From an uncultured Mycoplasmatota bacterium (GTDB taxonomy: Bacteria; Bacillota_I; Bacilli_A; RF39; UBA660): a stretch of DNA of 39,797 bases. Location: assembly GCA_949289505.1 (NCBI GenBank), contig CASEOP010000048.1:1-39797 (forward strand), read 5' to 3'. Position 1 is the stretch's first letter; every line of letters begins with the position of its first letter. The notes under the pieces were generated by a model. That model worked only from the letters and a program-made list of their open reading frames with translations. It had not been told where the DNA came from and ran no database searches. A program made the translations under genes and the position numbers. Below, one piece after another: positions 2,700 through 38,413 of this stretch.

Positions 2700-3920
2700 A
2701 TGAAGATAGAAACACTTAAAAGAAGTCATTTAAAAAGAAACATTATCATAGGAGTATTTGCAGTAGCGGTAATAAGTGCAGCAATATTAAATTTCACAAG
2801 AGCTAAATACCGGGTAACACAAAGTATACCACTTGTAACAGGGACAATTAATTATAAGTTAGCTGACTTAAATGTTATAGCGATGTATCAAGTAAACGAA
2901 AGTGGTGGATATGATTCGATAGATACAGTGCCTGATTCAGGCTATGTTTTAAATGAAGAAGAAAGTTACTGTGAAATTGATAGAGAAAAAGATGACAGTA
3001 TTACTATGATATATGAAAATGGTGTAGTAAATATTGGTGTTAAGGAAAAAGGCACAAAATGCTATTTGTATTTTGATGAAGGTGGATTATTATCAGGAAA
3101 TTTAGCCGAATCTATTATAGCAAACGCAGGAACAGATCAAATTTTAAATGATGACACTTCTGCACAAAATCCAAGATTTGTTGGTGCAGATCCGGATAAT
3201 TATGTATACTTTAATTGTGATGATTATAATAATCCAAGTAGTAGTACATGTGAATTATGGAGAATTATTGGAGTATTTAGTGAAGATACCCATGTTAGGA
3301 GTGGTGAAAAGTTAGTTAAATTAATACGAGATGAAAGTATTGGAAGCTACGCATGGGATTCAGGAGATGTTAATGATTGGACAACGGCAAGTTTACAAAA
3401 AAGTTTAAATGGAAGTTATTTAAGTGGAACAACCTTAGGAAGTGGAAAAGGAATAACCAGTGCAACAAATAACATGATTGAGACCGTAACATGGAAATTA
3501 GGAGAAAGTAGCACCTACAATGATGTAACAGCAAGTATGTTTTATGAAAGAGAAAGAGGAACAACAACATGGAAAGGAAAGATAGGATTAATGTATCCAA
3601 GTGATTATGGATATGCAACAAGTGGAGGAAGTACAACAAATCGCTCGTCTTGTTTAGCAAAAGAACTGTTTAATTGGGATAGTTCTAGTGATTGTAAAAA
3701 TAATGATTGGTTATATGATAGTGGTACTACTCAATGGACTTTAACTCCTCTTTCTTCTAGCACCGGCTACGTGTTTGGTGTGACCAACGACGGCATTGTC
3801 GGCAACCGCCACATCGCGCTCAACCGCAATGCCGTGCGTCCATCTATCTATCTAAAATCTAATATCGCGATTTCTAGCGGAACCGGATTAAGTTCCAATC
3901 CATATACTTTGACTGACTAA
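2700..3920 (+). CDS. Membrane-anchored or secreted surface protein with a C-terminal lectin-like (DUF6273/DUF1566-like) domain
   Basis: N-terminal TM or signal anchor (NIIIGVFAVAVISAAILNF). The C-terminus shows the pattern QWTLTP...GYVFGVTNDGIVGNRHIALNRNAVRPSIYL. From memory this resembles the W-x-(S/T)-(S/T)-P ... G ... VRP(A/S)(L/I) signature of DUF6273/DUF1566-type domains. Not verified by search. Confidence 0.6.
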   Translation: MKIETLKRSHLKRNIIIGVFAVAVISAAILNFTRAKYRVTQSIPLVTGTINYKLADLNVIAMYQVNESGGYDSIDTVPDSGYVLNEEESYCEIDREKDDSITMIYENGVVNIGVKEKGTKCYLYFDEGGLLSGNLAESIIANAGTDQILNDDTSAQNPRFVGADPDNYVYFNCDDYNNPSSSTCELWRIIGVFSEDTHVRSGEKLVKLIRDESIGSYAWDSGDVNDWTTASLQKSLNGSYLSGTTLGSGKGITSATNNMIETVTWKLGESSTYNDVTASMFYERERGTTTWKGKIGLMYPSDYGYATSGGSTTNRSSCLAKELFNWDSSSDCKNNDWLYDSGTTQWTLTPLSSSTGYVFGVTNDGIVGNRHIALNRNAVRPSIYLKSNIAISSGTGLSSNPYTLTD

Positions 3921-17182: not shown

Positions 17183-17206
17183 TAAAACTAGAATAGGGTG
17201 ACAAAT

Positions 17207-17794
17207 ATGGAAACAAAAGATACTACTAAAAAAAGATTAGTATTAGCATCTTTAATAATTGTAATGTCAATCGTTATAATTGGTATAAGCATTTCATACG
17301 CATACTTTTTAAATACAATTGAAGAAGTAAATAGTTCTAATCAAGGTCTAAATATTACTAGTGGAGAATTGACTATGAATTTTACTACTGAAAGATATAT
17401 AAAAACTAATAGTGCTTCACTAATAAATGATGCTGAAATAACTAGTAAAGCAGATTATACTTCTTTTAGTGTAACTATGCCTAGCTCATCATCTGCTGAT
17501 TCAGCCACATATAATTTATACTTGACGGAACTAAATATAAGTGATAATTTAAAAAATGGTTATGTTAAATGGGCATTATATGATGGCTCTGGTTCAAATC
17601 AAATAGCTAATGGTAATTTTGCTAGTGCAACAACAGGAACAAATTTAACATTAAAAAATAATATAACTATTAGTAAAGGCAATACTAATTCATATCGTTT
17701 ATACATATGGTTAAGTAATGATCCAAATAATAATCAAATTGATTTATTAAATGGCACGTTAAGTGCTAAAGTAGGATTTACCGCAACAACATAG
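17207..17794 (+). CDS. Secreted TasA/camelysin-like protein with a SipW-type signal peptide (paralog 1, orphan location)
   Basis: Signal peptide KKRLVLASLIIVMSIVIIGISISYAYF ends in the (G/S)x(F/Y)AYF motif of SipW-cognate signals. The body aligns by eye with the 34811 and 33321 proteins: SATYNLYLTELNIS against SATYAIVLDISNNTF, and NSYRLYIWLSNDPNNNQIDLLNGTLSAKVGF against TYNYTLEINYVDTNANQNHNANKTFNGNVKVEF. The ORF track starts at GTG 17198, but ATG 17207 has the better RBS spacing. Confidence 0.7.
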   Translation: METKDTTKKRLVLASLIIVMSIVIIGISISYAYFLNTIEEVNSSNQGLNITSGELTMNFTTERYIKTNSASLINDAEITSKADYTSFSVTMPSSSSADSATYNLYLTELNISDNLKNGYVKWALYDGSGSNQIANGNFASATTGTNLTLKNNITISKGNTNSYRLYIWLSNDPNNNQIDLLNGTLSAKVGFTATT

Positions 17795-33320: not shown

Positions 33321-34034
33321 ATGGAAAAGAAGAACACAATTCTTTTGACAGTTATCGCTGTAGCAACATTATTAGTAGCAGTAGTAGGTGCAACATTTGC
33401 ATACTTCACAGCAACAAGTGCTCCTAATGATCCAAGCAATGCTAGTGCCGATGCTACGACTGCAAATATAGCATCAGTTAATGTAACTTCATCTGCTAAT
33501 CAAAAGGCTTACTTAGAATATCCGGGTGGTATTGCTGTATTAGGCGCTGGCGTACAAATTAAAAAAGACGCTGCATCAGCAGGAAGCACATCTACAGTAG
33601 CTTATAATGTAAATTTAACTTACACAAATGAGACTGCAACTAATTTGCAATACACAATTTATAGAGCTGAAAAAAATAATGAAGATTCAATAGCATTAGC
33701 TGATTTGGATGCATTATGCAGTTTAAGTGTATCTAATGTTGGAGGAGAAGACCAATATTCTTATACATGTACAAAAAATGCTGCCGCATTAGCCGCAAAC
33801 TATGGTACTAAAGTAGGAGAAACTGGTACACTAACAGCAGGTCAAACATCTCAAGAAATTTCAGTAAAAGCAGAAAGCTTTGATCTTGACAGTGAAGCTG
33901 CTATAAATAATTCATACTATTATTATGTAGTTGTAGAGTATCCTAATTCTGGTGACCAAAACGCAGATATGGGCGATGCAATAACATTAGATTTAGATGT
34001 AACACAAGCAACTGTTAGTACTGCAAAAGACTAA
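33321..34034 (+). CDS. Secreted TasA/camelysin-like protein with a SipW-type signal peptide (paralog 2, probable major subunit)
   Basis: Signal peptide KKNTILLTVIAVATLLVAVVGATFAYFTATS. The end of the body, YYYYVVVEYPNSGDQNADMGDAITLDLDVTQA, parallels the TasA C-terminal pattern ...QG....L.F.FEATQ. The gene has an AGGAGG RBS, its own promoter and its own terminator. Ala-rich composition and more GC-rich codons suggest high expression. Confidence 0.75.
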   Translation: MEKKNTILLTVIAVATLLVAVVGATFAYFTATSAPNDPSNASADATTANIASVNVTSSANQKAYLEYPGGIAVLGAGVQIKKDAASAGSTSTVAYNVNLTYTNETATNLQYTIYRAEKNNEDSIALADLDALCSLSVSNVGGEDQYSYTCTKNAAALAANYGTKVGETGTLTAGQTSQEISVKAESFDLDSEAAINNSYYYYVVVEYPNSGDQNADMGDAITLDLDVTQATVSTAKD

Positions 34035-34160: not shown

Positions 34161-34721
34161 ATGATATTTAACGATTATAATAATGCGTATGACGAATTTA
34201 TTGGTTCTTATCCACTAAATAATTGTAATAAAATAAGTGGTAACATTTTTGCACAAACATTAAGAAAATACATAAAAAATATTATAAATAATACCTATGA
34301 AGTAAGTGAACTTAATGTCTATATTAAAGGAAGTAATATAGAATGGGATATGTTAATACTAAAGAAAAATATAAGCAATAAAGAAAAAGCATATAATATT
34401 TTTAATCCTGAAAATGTAGTATGTGCTATAGAATTTAAAACTAGTGGATTAATGACTAGTAATATTACCTTTGTTCAAAATTATTTTAAAACGCGAATAG
34501 AAGAGTTGGAAAATTTAAACAAAGAAATAAAATTTGCTTATATATCTCTATGTGAAATACCAAAAATAATTGAATATTTAAAACTTAATTATAAGGATAA
34601 TTGTTTTTGGTTAATAGAAGGATATTATAGAAGTAGGAATAAATCAGATACTAAATTAAATGATTATATGGAATTAGAAATATATTTAAAAAATCTACTA
34701 TTAAATGTTGTTAAAATATAA
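34161..34721 (+). CDS. Hypothetical protein with a possible PD-(D/E)xK nuclease-like core
   Basis: 186-aa cytoplasmic-looking ORF. The candidate motif pair is IEWDMLIL (Asp on a hydrophobic strand) and, about 28 aa later, VCAIEFKTSG (E-x-K). The gene is extremely AT-rich compared with both flanking genes. Confidence 0.35.
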   Translation: MIFNDYNNAYDEFIGSYPLNNCNKISGNIFAQTLRKYIKNIINNTYEVSELNVYIKGSNIEWDMLILKKNISNKEKAYNIFNPENVVCAIEFKTSGLMTSNITFVQNYFKTRIEELENLNKEIKFAYISLCEIPKIIEYLKLNYKDNCFWLIEGYYRSRNKSDTKLNDYMELEIYLKNLLLNVVKI

Positions 34722-34784: not shown

Positions 34785-34810
34785 TAAAACATAATATGGA
34801 GGTCTTATTA

Positions 34811-35383
34811 ATGAGCGTAACAAAGAAGAATATAATTTTATCAACCGTATTATGCTTTAGTATAGCTTTAATAGGTGTATCTTTTGCTTATTTTGCAAGT
34901 AGTGTTAACATTACAGGTAATGGTGCCTCAGTATCAGGCTCAACTGCCGATTTGATTAAAGTATCTTATGATGCTGGAAGTAGTATTCTAAGTTTAAATA
35001 ATGCAATTCCTGGGGATTTAGCATCTAAAGAGTTTAGTGTTAAAATCACCCCAACGGCTAACGAAAACAGTGCAACATATGCTATAGTATTAGATATTAG
35101 TAATAATACTTTTGAAAAATGTACAAATGCCACAAATGGTTGTATATTAAATGCAAACGAATTAACTTATACTTTAAAAGGTTCAGATGGTAGTACTTTA
35201 GCTAGTGGTGATTTAACTACTGCAAACGGAAAAATTACCCTTTTAAAAGAGACTAAAACTACTAGTGTTGAAACAACTTATAATTATACATTAGAAATTA
35301 ATTATGTAGATACAAATGCTAATCAAAATCATAATGCAAACAAAACTTTTAATGGTAATGTAAAGGTAGAATTTGCTGATTAA
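34811..35383 (+). CDS. Secreted TasA/camelysin-like protein with a SipW-type signal peptide (paralog 3)
   Basis: Signal peptide KKNIILSTVLCFSIALIGVSFAYFASS. The body carries NAIPGDLASKEFSVKIT (compare TasA PGD...F.F.N) and ends in NANQNHNANKTFNGNVKVEFAD. ATG 34811 follows GGAGG by 7 nt; the ATG at 34796 in the ORF track overlaps that RBS. Confidence 0.75.
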   Translation: MSVTKKNIILSTVLCFSIALIGVSFAYFASSVNITGNGASVSGSTADLIKVSYDAGSSILSLNNAIPGDLASKEFSVKITPTANENSATYAIVLDISNNTFEKCTNATNGCILNANELTYTLKGSDGSTLASGDLTTANGKITLLKETKTTSVETTYNYTLEINYVDTNANQNHNANKTFNGNVKVEFAD

Positions 35384-35416
35384 AACAATTAAATACAAAA
35401 GTAGGGAGTGTTCCAA

Positions 35417-37537
35417 ATGAACGATAGTAATTTACAAGAACAATATGCTTTATTAGAAGAAGAGGAAAGAGAGAATAAAAAGAAAACCATCATAATTATT
35501 ATATTATGCTTATTAATTATATTGACAACTCTTTTAGGAATTTTCTTCTCTATTTCCGGTAATAAAAAATGCAATTTAAACTGCGATACCGATGGCGATG
35601 GTGTATGCGATTTGAATTGTGATACTAACGGTGATGGTATATGTGATGTTAATTGTGATACCGATGGTGATGGCAAACCTGATATTAATATTGATTATAA
35701 TGGTGATTTAATACCTCACTTTAATATTCAAGTAGATGGTGAAATTATAAATCAATTAAATAAGGATATTGATGGCGATGGCAAATGCGATTTGAATTGT
35801 GATATTGATGGTGATGGCTGGCCTGATATTAATATAGACTTCGATAATACTAACACTTGTGATATAAATTGTGATTCAAACGGTGATAATAAGCCTGATT
35901 ACAATATAGATACTGATGGCGATGGCAAACCAGATATTAATATAGACATTGATGGTGATAATAAACCGGATATAAACATCGACATTGATGGTGATAATAA
36001 ACCTGATATAAACATTGACACTGATGGTGATAATAAACCGGATATAAACATCGACACTGATGGTGATAATAAACCTGATATAAACATCGACACTGATGGC
36101 GATGGCAAACCTGATGTTAACATTGATTATGATGGCGATGGCAAACCTGACTATAATATAGATACTGATAGTGATGGCAAACCAGATGATAACCTAATAA
36201 ATCAAGATACAAATAACGATGGTAAATGCGATATAAATTGTGATACAAATAACGATGGTGTGCCTGATATAAACATCGACATTGATGGTGATGGCAAACC
36301 TGATATTAATATAGACACTGATGGCGATGGCAAACCAGATATTAACTTAGATATTGACAAAGATAAAGAGCCTGATATTAATATAGATACCGATGGTGAT
36401 GGCAAACCTGATGAAAACCTTATGAATCAAGATACAAATAACGATGGCAAATGTGACATAAACTGCGATACTGATGGTGATGGCTGGCCTGACATAAACA
36501 TTGATATAGATAATGATGGCAAACCAGATATTAATATAGATACTGATGGTGATGGCAAATGTGATGTCAATTGTGATACAGATAATGATGGCAAACCAGA
36601 TATCAATATTGATATAAATAAAGATGGCAAACCAGATGTCAATATAGATACTGATGACGATGGCAAACCAGATGACAATTTAATAAATCAAGATACCGAT
36701 GGTGATGGTGTTTGCAACATAAATTGTGATACAAACGGTGATGGCGTGCCTGATACCAATATAGATATTGATGGCGATGGTAAACCTGATATTAATATTG
36801 ATGAAGATAATGATGGAGCGTGTGACTACAATTGTTATGATGATTTATATTATGATGCTAATTTAAGTGGAATTAAAGTTGGTAATTATAATTTAAAACC
36901 TAATTTTAATAATAAAATCACTAATTATACTGTAAATGTAGAAAAGAATTTAAATAGTATTGTTGTTGAAGCAACTGCTTTAAATCCTAAAGCGAAAATT
37001 ACAGGAACAGGAGTAATTAATTTAACCGAAGAAAGTACACGGGTAGCAATTACTGTAACTGCTGAAAATGGAAGTACAAAGACTTACTATGTAACTATTA
37101 TAAAATCAGTTGAACCTTCAACTTCTGACGAAGGAGAAGGAAGTTACGAAATTAGCAATGATTCATTAATGGTAAGTTTTACGAAGGCCATGAACGCAAC
37201 AAATATTATTCCTGGATGGGAAGGAACACATGCTTTTACAGTTACTAACAAATCTGATCAAACTTTAGTTTACAATATTAATTTAGTAAAAGTATCAAAC
37301 ACATTTAAAAATAACGAATTTGTCTTTAATTTAGTAAAAGATGGTAAAGTTTTAATTGAAGAAACACCAGCTTTAACTAGTGACAAAACAGTATATAGCA
37401 ACCTCGTAATTGCTCCTGGCGAAACTGCTACATTCCAGATGAATTACAAATTTATTTATCACGATTATAGCCAAGATTATAATCAAGGAGTAAGATATAC
37501 AGGAACCGTTGAAATAACTTTTGATGCTATTCAATAA
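35417..37537 (+). CDS. N-terminally membrane-anchored giant surface protein with Asp-rich Ca-binding (TSP type-3-like) repeats, a cadherin-like beta-sandwich and a C-terminal TasA-like domain
   Basis: An acidic cytoplasmic head is followed by a TM helix (TIIIIILCLLIILTTLLGIFFSI). About 35 units of the D-x-N-x-D-x-D-G-D-G-K-P type follow, some with Cys (CDLNCDTNGDGICD). The cadherin-like motif is LSGIKVGNYNLKPNFNNKITNYTVNV...ITVTAENGSTKTYYVTI. The C-terminal ~150 aa align with the small TasA-like paralogs and end in DYNQGVRYTGTVEITFDAIQ (compare TasA NKYQGNSIKLQFSFEATQ). The ORF track starts at GTG 35408; ATG 35417 follows an AGGGAG RBS. Confidence 0.8.
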   Translation: MNDSNLQEQYALLEEEERENKKKTIIIIILCLLIILTTLLGIFFSISGNKKCNLNCDTDGDGVCDLNCDTNGDGICDVNCDTDGDGKPDINIDYNGDLIPHFNIQVDGEIINQLNKDIDGDGKCDLNCDIDGDGWPDINIDFDNTNTCDINCDSNGDNKPDYNIDTDGDGKPDINIDIDGDNKPDINIDIDGDNKPDINIDTDGDNKPDINIDTDGDNKPDINIDTDGDGKPDVNIDYDGDGKPDYNIDTDSDGKPDDNLINQDTNNDGKCDINCDTNNDGVPDINIDIDGDGKPDINIDTDGDGKPDINLDIDKDKEPDINIDTDGDGKPDENLMNQDTNNDGKCDINCDTDGDGWPDINIDIDNDGKPDINIDTDGDGKCDVNCDTDNDGKPDINIDINKDGKPDVNIDTDDDGKPDDNLINQDTDGDGVCNINCDTNGDGVPDTNIDIDGDGKPDINIDEDNDGACDYNCYDDLYYDANLSGIKVGNYNLKPNFNNKITNYTVNVEKNLNSIVVEATALNPKAKITGTGVINLTEESTRVAITVTAENGSTKTYYVTIIKSVEPSTSDEGEGSYEISNDSLMVSFTKAMNATNIIPGWEGTHAFTVTNKSDQTLVYNINLVKVSNTFKNNEFVFNLVKDGKVLIEETPALTSDKTVYSNLVIAPGETATFQMNYKFIYHDYSQDYNQGVRYTGTVEITFDAIQ
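35570..36844 (+). repeat. Coding repeat region made of degenerate 36-bp (12-codon) Asp-rich units, with three ~75-85-aa super-repeats
   Basis: Periodic GATGG(T/C)GATGGCAAACC(T/A)GATATTAATATAGA-type units run throughout. The super-repeat marker NQDT(N/D)(N/G)DG(K/V)C(D/N)INCDT occurs three times, at about 36195, 36425 and 36685. Confidence 0.9.
35933..36112 (+). repeat. Five near-identical 36-bp tandem repeats
   Basis: Units start at 35933, 35969, 36005, 36041 and 36077. The consensus is gatataaacatcgacactgatggtgataataaacc(g/t). The four units starting at 35969-36077 differ at about 2-7 positions (mostly 2-3). The first unit (35933) is more divergent, at about 6-11 positions. Confidence 0.9.
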
Positions 37538-37548
37538 AAATAATTTTT

Positions 37549-37572
37549 ACCTATCATATTGATAGGTTTTTT
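37549..37572 (+). terminator. Rho-independent terminator after the giant repeat protein gene
   Basis: Stem acctatca / tgataggt with loop tat, followed by a T-run. Confidence 0.7.
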
Positions 37573-37636: not shown

Positions 37637-38413
37637 ATGAAAGATAATAAAACTTTATGGCGTAAAATCATACACATTATATCAAAAATATTATCATGGA
37701 CCCTATTTGTTATTTTACTTTTAATCGCAGCATTTCTAATATATTATTACATAGCTAACCAAAATTATATAAAAAAGGGTAGTGGTTATGAACCAAAATT
37801 TTCAATATACACCATAGCAACTGGTTCAATGGTTCCGAACATAAATGTTTTAGATGCAGTTATTAATAAAAAAGTTGAAAGTCCCAATGATTTAAAAGTT
37901 GGTGATGTAATTACGTTTAGATCAACAAGTGTATTAACAGCAAATATGACTATAACTCATCGTATAAAAGCGATAGAAACTGATGAAGAAGGAAATATTT
38001 GTTACATTACCAAAGGTGATGCTAATAATGTAGAAGATGATTCATGTACAAAACTAAATAATATTATAGGTAAAGTTATAATAAGAATACCAGGCCTAGG
38101 ACACATTCAAAAATTCTTAGCATCTAAAGCAGGATGGTTATTATGTATTTTAATTCCCGCATTATTTATAATAGGAAAAGACATAATGAAATTAACAAGA
38201 TTATCTAGTATAAACGAAAATGCAAGCAAGATGGGTGAAAAAAAGAAAAAAGACCCAAGAAAGGTAATGGCCGAAAAAAAACGTAAAGAACAAATAAAAA
38301 GAAATTTATTAAATGAAAGTAAAGAACCAAAAAGCTATTATAAAGATCCTAACATAAGAGTAATAGAAAAGAAAAAACCAAATAAAGTCAAAGAAAAACG
38401 AAAGAAAAAATAA
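37637..38413 (+). CDS. sipW: Signal peptidase I, archaeal/ER type (S26B, SipW-like), with a C-terminal TM and a Lys-rich tail
   Basis: N-terminal TM. The catalytic Ser context is IATGSMVPNINVLDAVI and the His context is MTITHRIKAIE. The GDAN motif is YITKGDANNVEDD. A second TM follows (AGWLLCILIPALFIIG), then a ~65-aa K/E-rich tail. Confidence 0.85.
   Translation: MKDNKTLWRKIIHIISKILSWTLFVILLLIAAFLIYYYIANQNYIKKGSGYEPKFSIYTIATGSMVPNINVLDAVINKKVESPNDLKVGDVITFRSTSVLTANMTITHRIKAIETDEEGNICYITKGDANNVEDDSCTKLNNIIGKVIIRIPGLGHIQKFLASKAGWLLCILIPALFIIGKDIMKLTRLSSINENASKMGEKKKKDPRKVMAEKKRKEQIKRNLLNESKEPKSYYKDPNIRVIEKKKPNKVKEKRKKK

What the first reader, a model, noticed from the sequence alone, without database searches (positions are those of the whole stretch)
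36857..37537. The TasA-like domain is fused behind a cadherin-like beta-sandwich instead of behind a SipW signal peptide
**Seen in the sequence**
- Residues encoded at about 36857-37110 match the cadherin-like beta-sandwich pattern: L.G.kV....L.P.F....t.Y.v.V, then a.i.g.G.inL.e.....i.VtAedGstktY.v.i.
- The last ~150 aa then align with the three free paralogs. Examples are NIIPGWEGTHAFTVTNKS against NAIPGDLASKEFSVKIT, LVYNINLVKVSNTFKNNEFVFNL against ATYAIVLDISNNTF...LTYTL, and ATFQMNYKFIYHDYSQDYNQGVRYTGTVEITF against TYNYTLEINYVDTNANQNHNANKTFNGNVKVEF.

**Inference**
The fused copy has no signal-peptidase-generated N-terminal strand. It could therefore act only as a strand acceptor, that is a fibre base or cap. 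That would give the polymer a defined polarity and attachment point.
Basis: inference. Interest (0 to 1): 0.65.

Follow-up and report, generated by a model that had tools for sequence, protein, structure and literature searches.

The report
Anchored stalk protein with TasA-like end
A membrane-anchored, aspartate-rich stalk protein of an uncultured gut bacterium ends in a copy of the biofilm-fibre (TasA-type) subunit fold that lacks the N-terminal strand the free subunits use to link up, so it probably ties the end of such a fibre to the cell; similar anchors have been predicted elsewhere but none has been tested.

Summary
ORF 35408-37537 (709 aa; the real start is probably ATG 35417) has these parts in order:
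- an acidic N-terminus and one TM helix;
- 31 twelve-residue DxDxDG units;
- a Cadherin-like domain (PF12733, E 1.7e-7);
- a C-terminal ~125-aa beta-sandwich.

Pairwise BLASTP against the small paralogs is not significant. Profile methods are:
- Fused-only profile against the family of the adjacent 195-aa gene: hhalign 96.8 %, E 2.6e-10.
- phmmer of the fused domain: 264 relatives, mostly with the domain directly behind a TM + [YF]A[YF]F signal.
- Many of these relatives pass Pfam's own cutoff for PF12389 (TasA/camelysin).

The other two paralogs (198 and 237 aa) are linked only weakly.

The order free subunit, fused protein, SipW-type peptidase recurs in at least 12 species-level gut MAGs (uncultured Bacilli, "Mycoplasma sp. 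CAG:776").

The conserved donor segment YFxSxV is replaced in the fused copy by an acidic, proline-containing linker, which AF2 leaves disordered.

"Acceptor-only anchor or terminator" is therefore plausible. It is untested: no co-fold was possible, and TasA-type monomers are themselves self-complemented. Its concept has precedents in predicted anchors (TafF, LPXTG/SLH AbpX-like proteins).

Verdict: a new variant of a known kind, of moderate interest.

The parts
35408..37537 (+). ORF of the fused protein (709 aa from GTG 35408; probable true start ATG 35417, giving 706 aa)
   Evidence: ORF list. Orthologues begin MND/MNN-SNLQEQYALLEEE and the closest one is 706 aa.
35417..35485 (+). Cytoplasmic N-terminal segment, acidic then KKK (MNDSNLQEQYALLEEEERENKKK)
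   Evidence: Read from the sequence. Together with the TM helix it is the most conserved part of the protein: 74-89 % identity, against 43-60 % for the C-terminal domain.
35486..35554 (+). Single TM helix (aa 27-49) ending in GIFFSIS, a degenerate form of the G-x-S-[FY]-A-[YF]-F motif of the free subunits
   Evidence: Read from the sequence and compared with paralogue signals. The family signal region matches only weakly (A1 domain 1, iE 0.093). Topology (N-in) is inferred from the KKK preceding the helix.
35570..36856 (+). Stalk of 31 twelve-residue DxDxDG units (e.g. NIDTDGDGKPDI / NCDTDGDGKCDL); 30 % Asp, net charge about -106, ten C-x3-C pairs. Presumed Ca2+-binding.
   Evidence: Motif count and composition. 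No Pfam family matches. The NCBIfam MSCRAMM hits are far below cutoff and reflect composition. Length varies between species, with whole proteins of 493-867 aa.
36896..37102 (+). Cadherin-like beta-sandwich domain (aa 497-565)
   Evidence: PF12733, E 1.7e-7, 32 bits against a cutoff of 24.2. AF2 gives beta strands at modest confidence, without alignment depth.
37103..37156 (+). Acidic, proline-containing linker (KSVEPSTSDEGEGSYEIS) at the position of the donor strand of the free subunits
   Evidence: Alignments A1 and A6 and the 14-species alignment. AF2 pLDDT < 50 and no strand.
37157..37534 (+). Donor-less TasA/camelysin-superfamily beta-sandwich (aa 584-709)
   Evidence: hhalign against the p195 family: 96.8 %, E 2.6e-10. 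phmmer: 264 relatives. AF2 core pLDDT 78-97 with 8 strands. Foldseek hit to TasA 5of2 is only weak (E 1.6e-2).
34796..35383 (+). Free subunit p195 (probable start ATG 34811, 190 aa), with signal ..IGVSFA|YFASSVNITG
   Evidence: 58 homologues, some passing the PF12389 cutoff. AF2 pLDDT 89, with the first 20 mature residues unstructured. Always lies directly upstream of the fused gene.
33321..34034 (+). Divergent free paralogue p237, with signal ..VGATFA|YFTAT
   Evidence: A1 profile E 1e-10, mostly N-terminal; core not significant. Conserved upstream in orthologous loci.
17198..17794 (+). Distant free paralogue p198, with signal ..GISISYA|YFLNT, encoded 17 kb away
   Evidence: A1 profile E 1e-11, A2 profile E 1.5e-8. 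Core-only E 3e-4 to 6e-4.
37637..38413 (+). SipW-type (archaeal/ER-type) signal peptidase I with a 73-aa Lys/Arg-rich C-terminal tail
   Evidence: TIGR02228, 91.6 bits against a cutoff of 51.85; Bacillus SipW model 80 bits, below its equivalog cutoff. GSM / THR / GDAN motifs read from the sequence. Tail composition. Conserved downstream in 13 loci.

Best explanation
**Shown**
- The gene encodes a type-II (N-in) membrane protein.
- Its extracellular part is a long, very acidic stalk of DxDxDG repeats, then a cadherin-like domain, then a C-terminal beta-sandwich.
- That sandwich is homologous to the SipW-processed TasA/camelysin-type subunits encoded next to it, above all p195.
- It retains the family's invariant core residues but lacks the conserved mature N-terminal segment that serves as donor strand in TasA-type fibres.
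- The order free subunit(s), fused protein, SipW is conserved across a clade of uncultured gut Bacilli.

**Inferred**
- The free subunits polymerise by donor-strand complementation after SipW cleavage.
- The fused domain can take up a subunit's donor strand but cannot pass one on. It therefore occupies one unique end of the fibre.
- In the published TasA and BsaA models the growing end presents the donor strand to a newly secreted, membrane-proximal acceptor. Under that scheme the fused protein would act as a terminator and anchor: it captures the last donor strand and holds the fibre on the cell through stalk and TM helix. This matches the role proposed for TafF in haloarchaeal tafi and for PapH in P pili.
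- The stalk would set the distance from the membrane through the wall, probably depending on Ca2+.
For: **Architecture:**

**Homology**
- hhalign A3 against A2: 96.8 %, E 2.6e-10.
- A3 HMM against p195: E 3e-10, and E 2e-10 on the core alone.
- phmmer: 264 relatives. At least 87 of the top 150 have the domain directly behind a TM + [YF]A[YF]F signal.
- PF12389 matches 25 of 40 family members, and separately scanned relatives score above the Pfam cutoff.
- TasA and AbpX are among the best PDB sequence matches of the family profile, at E 0.02-0.06.

**Missing donor segment**
- Alignments.
- AF2: linker pLDDT < 50, core about 90.
- In free p195 the conserved N-terminal 20 residues are also unstructured in the monomer, as expected of a donor strand awaiting a partner (conservation).

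**Functional coupling:** conserved synteny with the free subunit and SipW in L001, L005, L007, L009 and L011-L024.

**Mechanistic precedents**
- TasA donor strand, residues 28-38, and TapA as donor-only nucleator (PMC9674648, PMC10151520).
- Membrane-anchored BsaA oligomers with addition at the base (PMC11580942).
- TafF as a TM-anchored terminal acceptor (PMC11821415).
- LPXTG/SLH-anchored AbpX-like proteins predicted to join the fibre (bioRxiv 10.64898/2026.01.04.697558).
Against: - There is no direct test of strand acceptance. Co-folding was not possible and model coordinates could not be inspected.
- Structural similarity to TasA is weak: Foldseek E 1.6e-2 for the fused model and 7.7e-3 (TMq 0.42) for p195, with no PDB hit at E <= 1e-3 for p195.
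- The fold also occurs as an internal or tandem module that needs no partner.
  - P0064 has 23 matched stretches, which Pfam calls DUF7507/DUF11.
  - P0071 has a second, internal copy.
- The linker is moderately conserved (P..[ED][ED]G.G.[VIFY][DE]I) and might complement the domain in cis.
- The TM helix ends in a degenerate SipW-like motif, and relatives have canonical ones. The protein might therefore be cleaved and released, which would remove the anchor.
- Fibres have never been observed in these uncultured organisms.
Confidence: 0.45

Rival explanations
1. The protein is an independent surface adhesin or stalk protein. Its C-terminal sandwich is a self-sufficient Ig-like module that has lost any role in polymerisation. 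It sits next to SipW and the free subunits only because of shared regulation or secretion, or shared ancestry.
For: - The fold is detectably related to autonomous tandem repeats of the DUF7507/DUF11 type.
- It occurs as an internal second copy in P0071.
- AF2 models the domain as a confident closed 8-strand sandwich without any partner.
- In distant relatives the donor-less domain is found without a nearby SipW (L025-L027).
- It is also found behind a type IV pilin-like N-terminus (P0146).
- Foldseek gives only generic beta-sandwich matches.
Against: - Gene order with a free subunit upstream and SipW downstream is strictly conserved in at least 12 species.
- All residues invariant in the donor-bearing subunits are retained.
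- The nearest relatives by sequence are donor-bearing SipW-type subunits, not DUF7507 repeats.
- AF2 also gives a closed core for the free subunit, so a closed model does not argue for autonomy.
Confidence: 0.3
2. The N-terminal helix is a SipW-cleaved signal peptide with an unusually long cytoplasmic n-region. The mature protein is released and acts as a Ca2+-dependent matrix component, cap or cross-linker rather than as a membrane anchor. It may still accept a donor strand.
For: - The helix ends in a degenerate SipW-type motif, and S-I-S|G would satisfy the small -1/-3 rule.
- P0116 has the same acidic N-terminus, a canonical TYS|YF site and the domain directly behind it.
- P0171 has STYS|YIKTYIKT ahead of the repeats.
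- Signal peptides of the free subunits are just as strongly conserved, so conservation of the N-terminus does not prove that it is retained.
- A calcium-responsive matrix role is described for the related AbpX family (bioRxiv 10.64898/2026.01.04.697558).
Against: - The -3/-1 pattern is not conserved among close orthologues (FSLL|G, FSYK|R, FSYT|T).
- At the position aligned with the free subunits' site, -3 is Phe.
- No donor-like aromatic or hydrophobic residues follow the putative site in this clade.
- The cytoplasmic segment is 74-89 % identical across species, more than any ectodomain.
Confidence: 0.15
3. The similarity to the small paralogues is convergent or compositional: a generic 'PG...F.V.N' Ig-like motif in low-GC, Asn/Thr-rich proteins. 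There is no specific relationship.
For: - Pairwise BLASTP is not significant.
- The window's sequences do not hit PF12389.
- p237 and p198 cores are at or below significance against the fused-only profile.
Against: - Profile-profile E 2.6e-10 over 125 columns, running end to end through the domain.
- phmmer of the single sequence against 1.84 billion proteins gives E down to 1e-10 for donor-bearing subunits.
- Direct phmmer P of about 4e-9 to p195-family members P0054, P0036 and P0055.
Confidence: 0.03

Closest known systems
TasA / camelysin family (Pfam PF12389) with SipW, Bacillus subtilis tapA-sipW-tasA
   Same: - Free subunits with a SipW-type signal, next to an archaeal-type signal peptidase.
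- The N-terminal motif pattern (..A|[AY]F.. then G-T-L-x-L .. PG.. F.v.N.G) matches (alignment).
- Relatives pass the PF12389 cutoff.
   Different: - The domain here is a minimal ~125-140 aa sandwich, against ~230 aa in TasA.
- Structural match to TasA is weak.
- The fused copy lacks signal and donor segment and is not recognised by PF12389.
- No TapA homologue was found in the locus (no TapA-type family match).
TapA (B. subtilis) and AbpB (Pyrobaculum), accessory nucleator/anchor proteins
   Same: A minor, operon-encoded accessory protein thought to define one end of the fibre and its link to the cell (PMC9674648, PMC10151520, PMC9245690).
   Different: - TapA is proposed to be donor-only, with a complete Ig fold of a different type. 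It gives its N-terminal strand to the first TasA.
- The protein here would be the mirror image: acceptor-only, homologous to the subunit itself, and at the opposite fibre end.
TafF of haloarchaeal Tat-fimbriae (tafi), PMC11821415
   Same: - A subunit-like beta-sandwich joined to a membrane-spanning region.
- AlphaFold predicts that it receives the last donor strand and 'finalises' and anchors the chain.
- A TafF homologue is annotated 'MSCRAMM adhesin SdrC' in the database, the same family name that the stalk here attracts.
   Different: - TafF has the subunit-like domain at the N-terminus and TM helices at the C-terminus. Here the order is reversed: N-terminal signal-anchor, C-terminal domain.
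- The organisms differ (archaeal against gut Bacilli).
- No sequence relationship was tested.
- TafF's role is itself only modelled.
LPXTG- or SLH-anchored AbpX-like proteins and LPXTG BsaB homologues in TasA-superfamily loci (bioRxiv 10.64898/2026.01.04.697558; PMC11580942)
   Same: A subunit-like domain fused to a cell-envelope anchor and encoded beside fibre subunits and a dedicated signal peptidase. AF3 predicts that the LPXTG-anchored AbpX-like protein forms donor-strand oligomers with the fibre subunit.
   Different: - Here the anchor is a TM helix plus a DxDxDG stalk and a cadherin-like domain, not a sortase or SLH wall anchor.
- The donor-less state is inferred here from sequence.
Terminal subunits of chaperone-usher pili (FimH/PapG pilin domains, PapH/FimI terminators)
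   Same: - The logic that a subunit lacking one half of the donor/acceptor pair fixes the polarity and the end of the polymer.
- Chaperone-usher pilins are among the top (weak) Foldseek matches of p195.
   Different: There is no evolutionary relationship, no chaperone or usher, and the envelope is Gram-positive-type. Similarity scores are weak (E >= 1.6e-3, TM about 0.3).

Membership tests
Pfam PF12389 Peptidase_M73 (TasA/camelysin) | Sequence matches the family HMM at or above the gathering score (22.5 bits) | tested here: not met
   - The fused protein and the three window paralogues give no PF12389 hit at E <= 1. The fused domain alone gives none at E <= 0.1.
- Homologues do pass: P0226 40.7, P0237 35.6, P0098 32.1, P0118 27.9, P0046 26.5 and P0054 25.3 bits.
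- Most of the score comes from profile positions 8-79 (signal, donor and first strands), which the fused copy lacks.
Pfam PF12389 Peptidase_M73 (TasA/camelysin) | Homology to bona fide family members shown transitively or by profile-profile comparison | tested here: met
   - hhalign fused-only profile against the p195 family: 96.8 %, E 2.6e-10. The p195 family includes members that pass PF12389.
- 25 of 40 members of the joint alignment hit PF12389.
Pfam PF12389 Peptidase_M73 (TasA/camelysin) | N-terminal SipW-type signal peptide immediately before the domain | tested here: not met
   - The fused domain starts at aa ~584, behind repeats, a cadherin-like domain and a linker.
- The free paralogues do have it.
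- The fused protein's own TM helix ends in a degenerate motif, GIFFSIS.
Pfam PF12389 Peptidase_M73 (TasA/camelysin) | Encoded next to a SipW-type (archaeal/ER-type) signal peptidase I | tested here: met
   Gene 37637-38413: TIGR02228, 91.6 bits against a cutoff of 51.85. Conserved in 13 related loci.
Pfam PF12389 Peptidase_M73 (TasA/camelysin) | Jelly-roll / beta-sandwich fold superposable on TasA (5OF1/5OF2, 8AUR) | tested here: inconclusive
   - Foldseek, fused model against 5of2: E 1.6e-2, TM about 0.31-0.36, rank 44.
- Foldseek, p195 model against 8aur: E 7.7e-3, TMq 0.42 (the highest TMq in the list), rank 25.
- No hit at E <= 1e-3 for p195.
Pfam PF12389 Peptidase_M73 (TasA/camelysin) | Polymerisation by N-terminal donor-strand complementation | not testable with these tools
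- Indirect evidence only: the conserved but unstructured N-terminus of free p195, and its absence from the fused copy.
Pfam PF12733 Cadherin-like beta sandwich | HMM match above the gathering score | tested here: met
   aa 497-565, E 1.7e-7, 32 bits against a cutoff of 24.2, covering profile positions 7-87 of 89.
TapA/YqxM-type nucleator | SipW-processed protein whose mature N-terminus mimics the subunit donor strand; a separate Ig fold | tested here: not met
   - No TapA-type family hit in NCBIfam or Pfam.
- Residues after the TM helix (ISGNKKCNLNCD) do not resemble YFxSxV.
- The C-terminal domain is subunit-like, not TapA-like.
Anchor/terminator subunit of donor-strand fibres (TafF-like, functional class) | Subunit-like domain lacking its own donor strand, joined to a membrane or wall anchor, encoded with the subunits | tested here: met
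   Donor segment absent. TM helix and stalk present. Synteny conserved. Whether the helix stays uncleaved was not tested.
Anchor/terminator subunit of donor-strand fibres (TafF-like, functional class) | Accepts the donor strand of the major subunit | not testable with these tools
   Needs a multimer prediction or an experiment.
MSCRAMM Sdr/Clf adhesins (NCBIfam hits) | Score at the family's cutoff; A-domain and LPXTG anchor | tested here: not met
   80-90 bits against cutoffs of 999-2500. The matches fall only on the Asp-rich repeat region. There is no LPXTG motif in the sequence.

The most novel reading that the evidence does not exclude
The fused protein is a dedicated, uncleaved base subunit of a chaperone-free donor-strand fibre.
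- Its acidic cytoplasmic N-terminus docks onto the 73-residue Lys/Arg-rich cytoplasmic tail of the cognate SipW. Subunits would then be cleaved right next to a membrane-tethered acceptor domain held at wall-spanning distance by a Ca2+-stiffened DxDxDG stalk.
- This would be a minimal two-protein assembly-and-anchoring platform for TasA-type fibres in reduced-genome gut Bacilli.
- The same donor-less module would have been re-used on other anchors, for example type IV pilin-like N-termini (P0146).
Probability: 0.12. Interest if true: 0.75.

Novelty: new variant of a known kind. Interest (0 to 1): 0.5.

Why it matters
How TasA-type fibres are started, ended and held on the cell is still unsettled, even in Bacillus subtilis and Clostridium perfringens.

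- TapA is thought to be a donor-only nucleator.
- BsaA oligomers are membrane-bound by an unknown link.
- The only 'acceptor-only anchor' proposals (TafF, LPXTG/SLH AbpX-like proteins) rest on AlphaFold models.

A conserved operon in which the subunit fold is naturally split into donor-bearing free copies and a donor-less, membrane-tethered copy gives a clean natural experiment on fibre polarity and anchoring. It could be tested by heterologous expression.

It also points to surface-fibre or biofilm capacity in an uncultured, reduced-genome lineage of gut Bacilli ("Mycoplasma sp. CAG:776"-like MAGs). If the domain proves to be a self-sufficient Ig module, the finding is an ordinary mosaic surface protein.

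Tried and rejected
- **Pairwise BLASTP** of the C-terminal 226 aa against each small paralogue: not significant. Profiles were needed.
- **phmmer of the fused domain and of p195 against PDB sequences:** nothing significant. The fused-only profile A3 and the p195 profile A2 against PDB also gave nothing. Only the mixed profile A1 put TasA and AbpX near the top, at borderline E 0.02-0.06.
- **The search for homologous proteins with the 145-aa domain alone:** no hit, not even the window's own protein, although orthologues exist. I take this as a gap of the word index for these low-complexity proteins, not as absence.
- **Foldseek with the two-domain model:** dominated by high-rmsd two-sandwich matches and uninformative.
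- **First genome scan with the 14-sequence alignment:** It was repeated with 7 closer sequences.
- **Pfam on the repeat region alone at E <= 10:** no TSP3, Excalibur, dockerin or other Ca-binding family. 'Ca2+-binding' rests only on the DxDxDG motif.
- **Fused-only profile against p237 and p198:** 52 % over 35 columns, and 0.2 %, respectively. I do not claim a direct relationship for these two.
- **Search for RNA-seq runs:** only gut metagenome DNA runs hold the locus, so there is no expression evidence.
- **Promoter/terminator scan:** promoter-like sites were fewer than in shuffles. One terminator-like hairpin lies after the fused gene. Operon structure is unresolved.
- **Conservation of the N-terminus as evidence that it is retained:** considered and rejected, because the cleaved signals of the free subunits are equally conserved.


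Full report
**What is at the coordinates.**
The finding lies in the last third of ORF 35408-37537 (+ strand, 709 aa from a GTG). Orthologues start MND/MNN-SNLQEQYALLEEE, and the closest is 706 aa. The real start is therefore probably ATG 35417. The parts, read from the sequence, are:
- an acidic N-terminal segment ending in KKK;
- one hydrophobic helix (aa 27-49), giving an N-in, C-out signal-anchor topology;
- 429 residues made of 31 twelve-residue DxDxDG units (30 % Asp, net charge about -106, ten C-x3-C pairs);
- a Cadherin-like beta-sandwich (PF12733, aa 497-565, E 1.7e-7, above the Pfam cutoff);
- a roughly 20-residue acidic linker;
- a C-terminal domain of about 125 residues.

The next gene (37637-38413) is an archaeal/ER-type, SipW-like signal peptidase I (TIGR02228, 91.6 bits against a cutoff of 51.85). 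Three small ORFs carry a TM helix followed by [FY]A[YF]F: p237 (33321-34034), p195 (34796-35383) and p198 (17198-17794).

**Is the similarity more than chance?**
Pairwise BLASTP says no (E 0.17-0.42). Neither the fused protein nor the small ORFs hit PF12389. Profile-level evidence says yes.
- A single-sequence phmmer search of the 144 C-terminal residues against 1.84 billion representatives found 264 proteins at E <= 1e-3.
  - After the orthologous fused proteins, the hits are mostly proteins of about 175-220 aa in which the domain follows a TM helix and a [YF]A[YF]F motif directly. At least 87 of the top 150 are of this kind.
- A profile built only from fused-type domains (A3) aligns with the p195 family (A2) at 96.8 % probability, E 2.6e-10, over 125 columns.
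- The A3 HMM picks p195 out of all 139 six-frame ORFs of the window at E 3e-10. It still does so when the signal and first 15 mature residues are removed (E 2e-10).
- Direct phmmer gives P of about 4e-9 to p195-family members.
- For p198 and p237 the link is weaker.
  - A mixed family profile finds both at E 1e-11 and 1e-10.
  - Core-only, p198 reaches 3e-4 to 6e-4 and p237 is not significant.
  - hhalign of A3 against a p237 family gives 52 % over 35 columns.

**Is it 'TasA-like'?**
- By sequence family, yes.
  - 25 of 40 members of the joint alignment hit PF12389 (best 6.5e-11).
  - Individually scanned relatives exceed Pfam's cutoff, including two members of the p195 family, one of them over nearly the whole profile.
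  - The family profile places TasA (8AUR, 5OF1) and AbpX among its best PDB sequence matches, though only at E 0.02-0.06.
- By structure, the evidence is weak.
  - AF2 models are confident: fused core pLDDT 78-97; mature p195 pLDDT 89.
  - Foldseek gives TasA only at E 1.6e-2 for the fused model and 7.7e-3 (TMq 0.42) for p195. Chaperone-usher pilins and an archaeal thread subunit score at similar levels.
- The domain is a minimal version (about 125-140 aa) of a fold that is about 230 aa in TasA.
- It is also detectably related to autonomous tandem Ig-like repeats. P0064 has 23 matched stretches, which Pfam calls DUF7507/DUF11.

**What is missing in the fused copy.**
- In the free family the mature N-terminus is strongly conserved: YF-x-S/A-x-V...G.G, with Y32, S35, G41 and G43 invariant or nearly so in the p195 family.
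- AF2 nevertheless leaves it unstructured in the monomer (pLDDT 52-63). That is the behaviour expected of a donor strand.
- In TasA the corresponding residues 28-38 are the donor strand. The monomer's groove is temporarily filled by residues 48-61 (PMC9674648).
- In the fused protein the aligned stretch is K-x-E/N-P-S-T-S-[DE]-[DE]-G-x-G. It is polar, acidic and proline-containing, and AF2 gives it pLDDT < 50 with no strand.
- Everything downstream is retained, including the family-invariant P37, G38, N49, Y57, N66, F68, I103 and Q124.
- The statement 'no donor strand in front of this copy' is therefore supported at the sequence level.

**Context elsewhere.**
- The order p237-like, p195-like, fused protein (493-867 aa, differing mainly in stalk length), SipW, with FemAB on the opposite strand, recurs in metagenomic contigs.
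- It also recurs in at least 12 species-representative MAGs labelled uncultured Bacilli, Tenericutes or 'Mycoplasma sp. CAG:776', all from gut samples.
- The fused architecture is widespread and old. Many representatives join the DxDxDG repeats directly to the domain without a cadherin-like module.
- The fused domain is closer to 'PGW'-type free subunits of other genomes (about 30-35 % identity) than to its own neighbour p195 (22 %).
- Three relatives change the picture.
  - P0116 has the same acidic N-terminus and TM helix, a canonical TYS|YF site, and the domain directly behind it.
  - P0171 has STYS|YIKTYIKT, then repeats, then the domain. It may keep a donor strand at the far end of the stalk.
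  - P0146 carries the donor-less domain behind a type IV pilin-like N-terminus.
- The fused protein's helix ends in GIFFSIS, a degenerate form of GVSFAYF. Cleavage by SipW cannot be excluded.
- The strong conservation of the N-terminus (74-89 % against 43-60 % for the C-terminal domain) does not settle this. The cleaved signals of the free subunits are just as conserved.

**Most likely mechanism.**
- Shown: architecture, homology, absence of the donor segment, and conserved linkage to free subunits and SipW.
- Inferred: the free subunits polymerise by donor-strand complementation, and the fused domain can receive a strand but cannot pass one on, so it marks one end of the fibre.
- In the TasA and BsaA models the complemented subunit extends its donor strand into a new, membrane-proximal monomer (PMC9674648, PMC11580942).
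- Under that scheme a donor-less, membrane-tethered acceptor would terminate growth and fix the fibre to the cell. This is the mirror image of donor-only TapA (PMC10151520). It is the same role as AlphaFold-based proposals give to TafF in haloarchaeal tafi (PMC11821415) and to LPXTG/SLH-anchored AbpX-like proteins (bioRxiv 10.64898/2026.01.04.697558).
- I give this 0.45.
- The main rival (0.3) is that the domain is a self-sufficient Ig-like end module of an adhesin.
- A further 0.15 goes to a SipW-cleaved, released Ca2+-dependent matrix protein or cap.
The free subunit is predicted with the same closed core, and TasA monomers are self-complemented before assembly.

**Limits.**
- No multimer prediction was possible.
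- The fused model had no alignment depth for the linker and the cadherin-like domain.
- No transcript data exist.
- The organisms are uncultured.

**Verdict.**
It is a new variant of a known kind, of moderate interest (0.5).

Noticed in passing
window 37637-38413 (aa 186-258 of the peptidase) and 35417-35485: The SipW-type peptidase carries a 73-residue C-terminal tail with 28 Lys/Arg, also present in orthologues (L005, L007, L009). The fused protein's cytoplasmic N-terminus is acidic (EQYALLEEEERE). The two could pair on the cytoplasmic face; this is pure inference.
   Followed up: partly
window 33321-34034 and orthologues in L004, L006, L007, L012, L013, L015, L018, L023, L024: The signal peptide of p237 (MEKKNTILLTVIAVATLLVAVVGATFAYFTA) is almost identical in ten species. 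The following ~30 residues are hypervariable and rich in Thr/Ser/Gly/Ala.
   Followed up: partly
window 34161-34721: A 186-aa ORF without a signal (weak DUF6602, E 0.0024) sits between p237 and p195. Orthologous loci L001 and L007 have no gene there, and L004 has two other small ORFs. It looks like a local insertion into the operon.
   Followed up: partly
window 2700-3920: The C-terminus (aa 324-401) of this 406-aa ORF with an N-terminal TM helix resembles the C-terminal 'cargo' domain of P0088 (BLASTP E 1e-4; weak DUF6273). P0088 starts with a SipW-type signal and a TasA-like domain. The ORF's own N-terminus is not detected by the family profiles.
   Followed up: partly
P0146 (290 aa, metagenomic relative): The donor-less TasA-like domain also occurs behind a type IV pilin-like N-terminus (KGFTLVEIIVSVAL...) and one DxDxDG unit. 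This recalls the link between type IV pilus genes and secretion of TasA-like matrix proteins reported for C. perfringens (PMC11580942).
   Followed up: no
window 35408 vs 35417: The mechanical ORF starts at GTG 35408 (MFQM...). All orthologues start at the Met that corresponds to ATG 35417. Likewise p195 probably starts at ATG 34811; the database version is 190 aa.
   Followed up: yes
window 37549-37567: A terminator-like hairpin (8 bp stem, T-run) lies 12 nt after the stop of the fused gene, with promoter-like hexamers ahead of the peptidase gene. The peptidase may be transcribed partly on its own. Promoter-like sites are not enriched over shuffles.
   Followed up: partly
L001, L005, L007, L009 (large genes): The large fused proteins have no precomputed Pfam entry ('-') although they contain a clear Cadherin-like domain. 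The word-index protein search did not return even the window's own protein. Such Asp-rich repeat proteins seem under-represented in that index, so 'no homologues' from it should not be trusted for them.
   Followed up: partly
window 35570-36856: The stalk has ten C-x3-C pairs embedded in N-C-D-x-[DN]-G-D-G-x-C-D units, alternating with Cys-free INIDTDGDGKPD units. No Pfam family matches. Stalk length differs by up to about 370 residues between species.
   Followed up: partly
alignment A1, window aa 614, 631, 689 of the fused protein: N49, N66 (in NTF) and Q124 (in Q-x-x-[DN]-x-G-K) are invariant or nearly so in both free and fused copies. Related BsaA fibres are locked by Asn-Lys isopeptide bonds (PMC11580942). 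Whether these residues do something similar was not examined.
   Followed up: no
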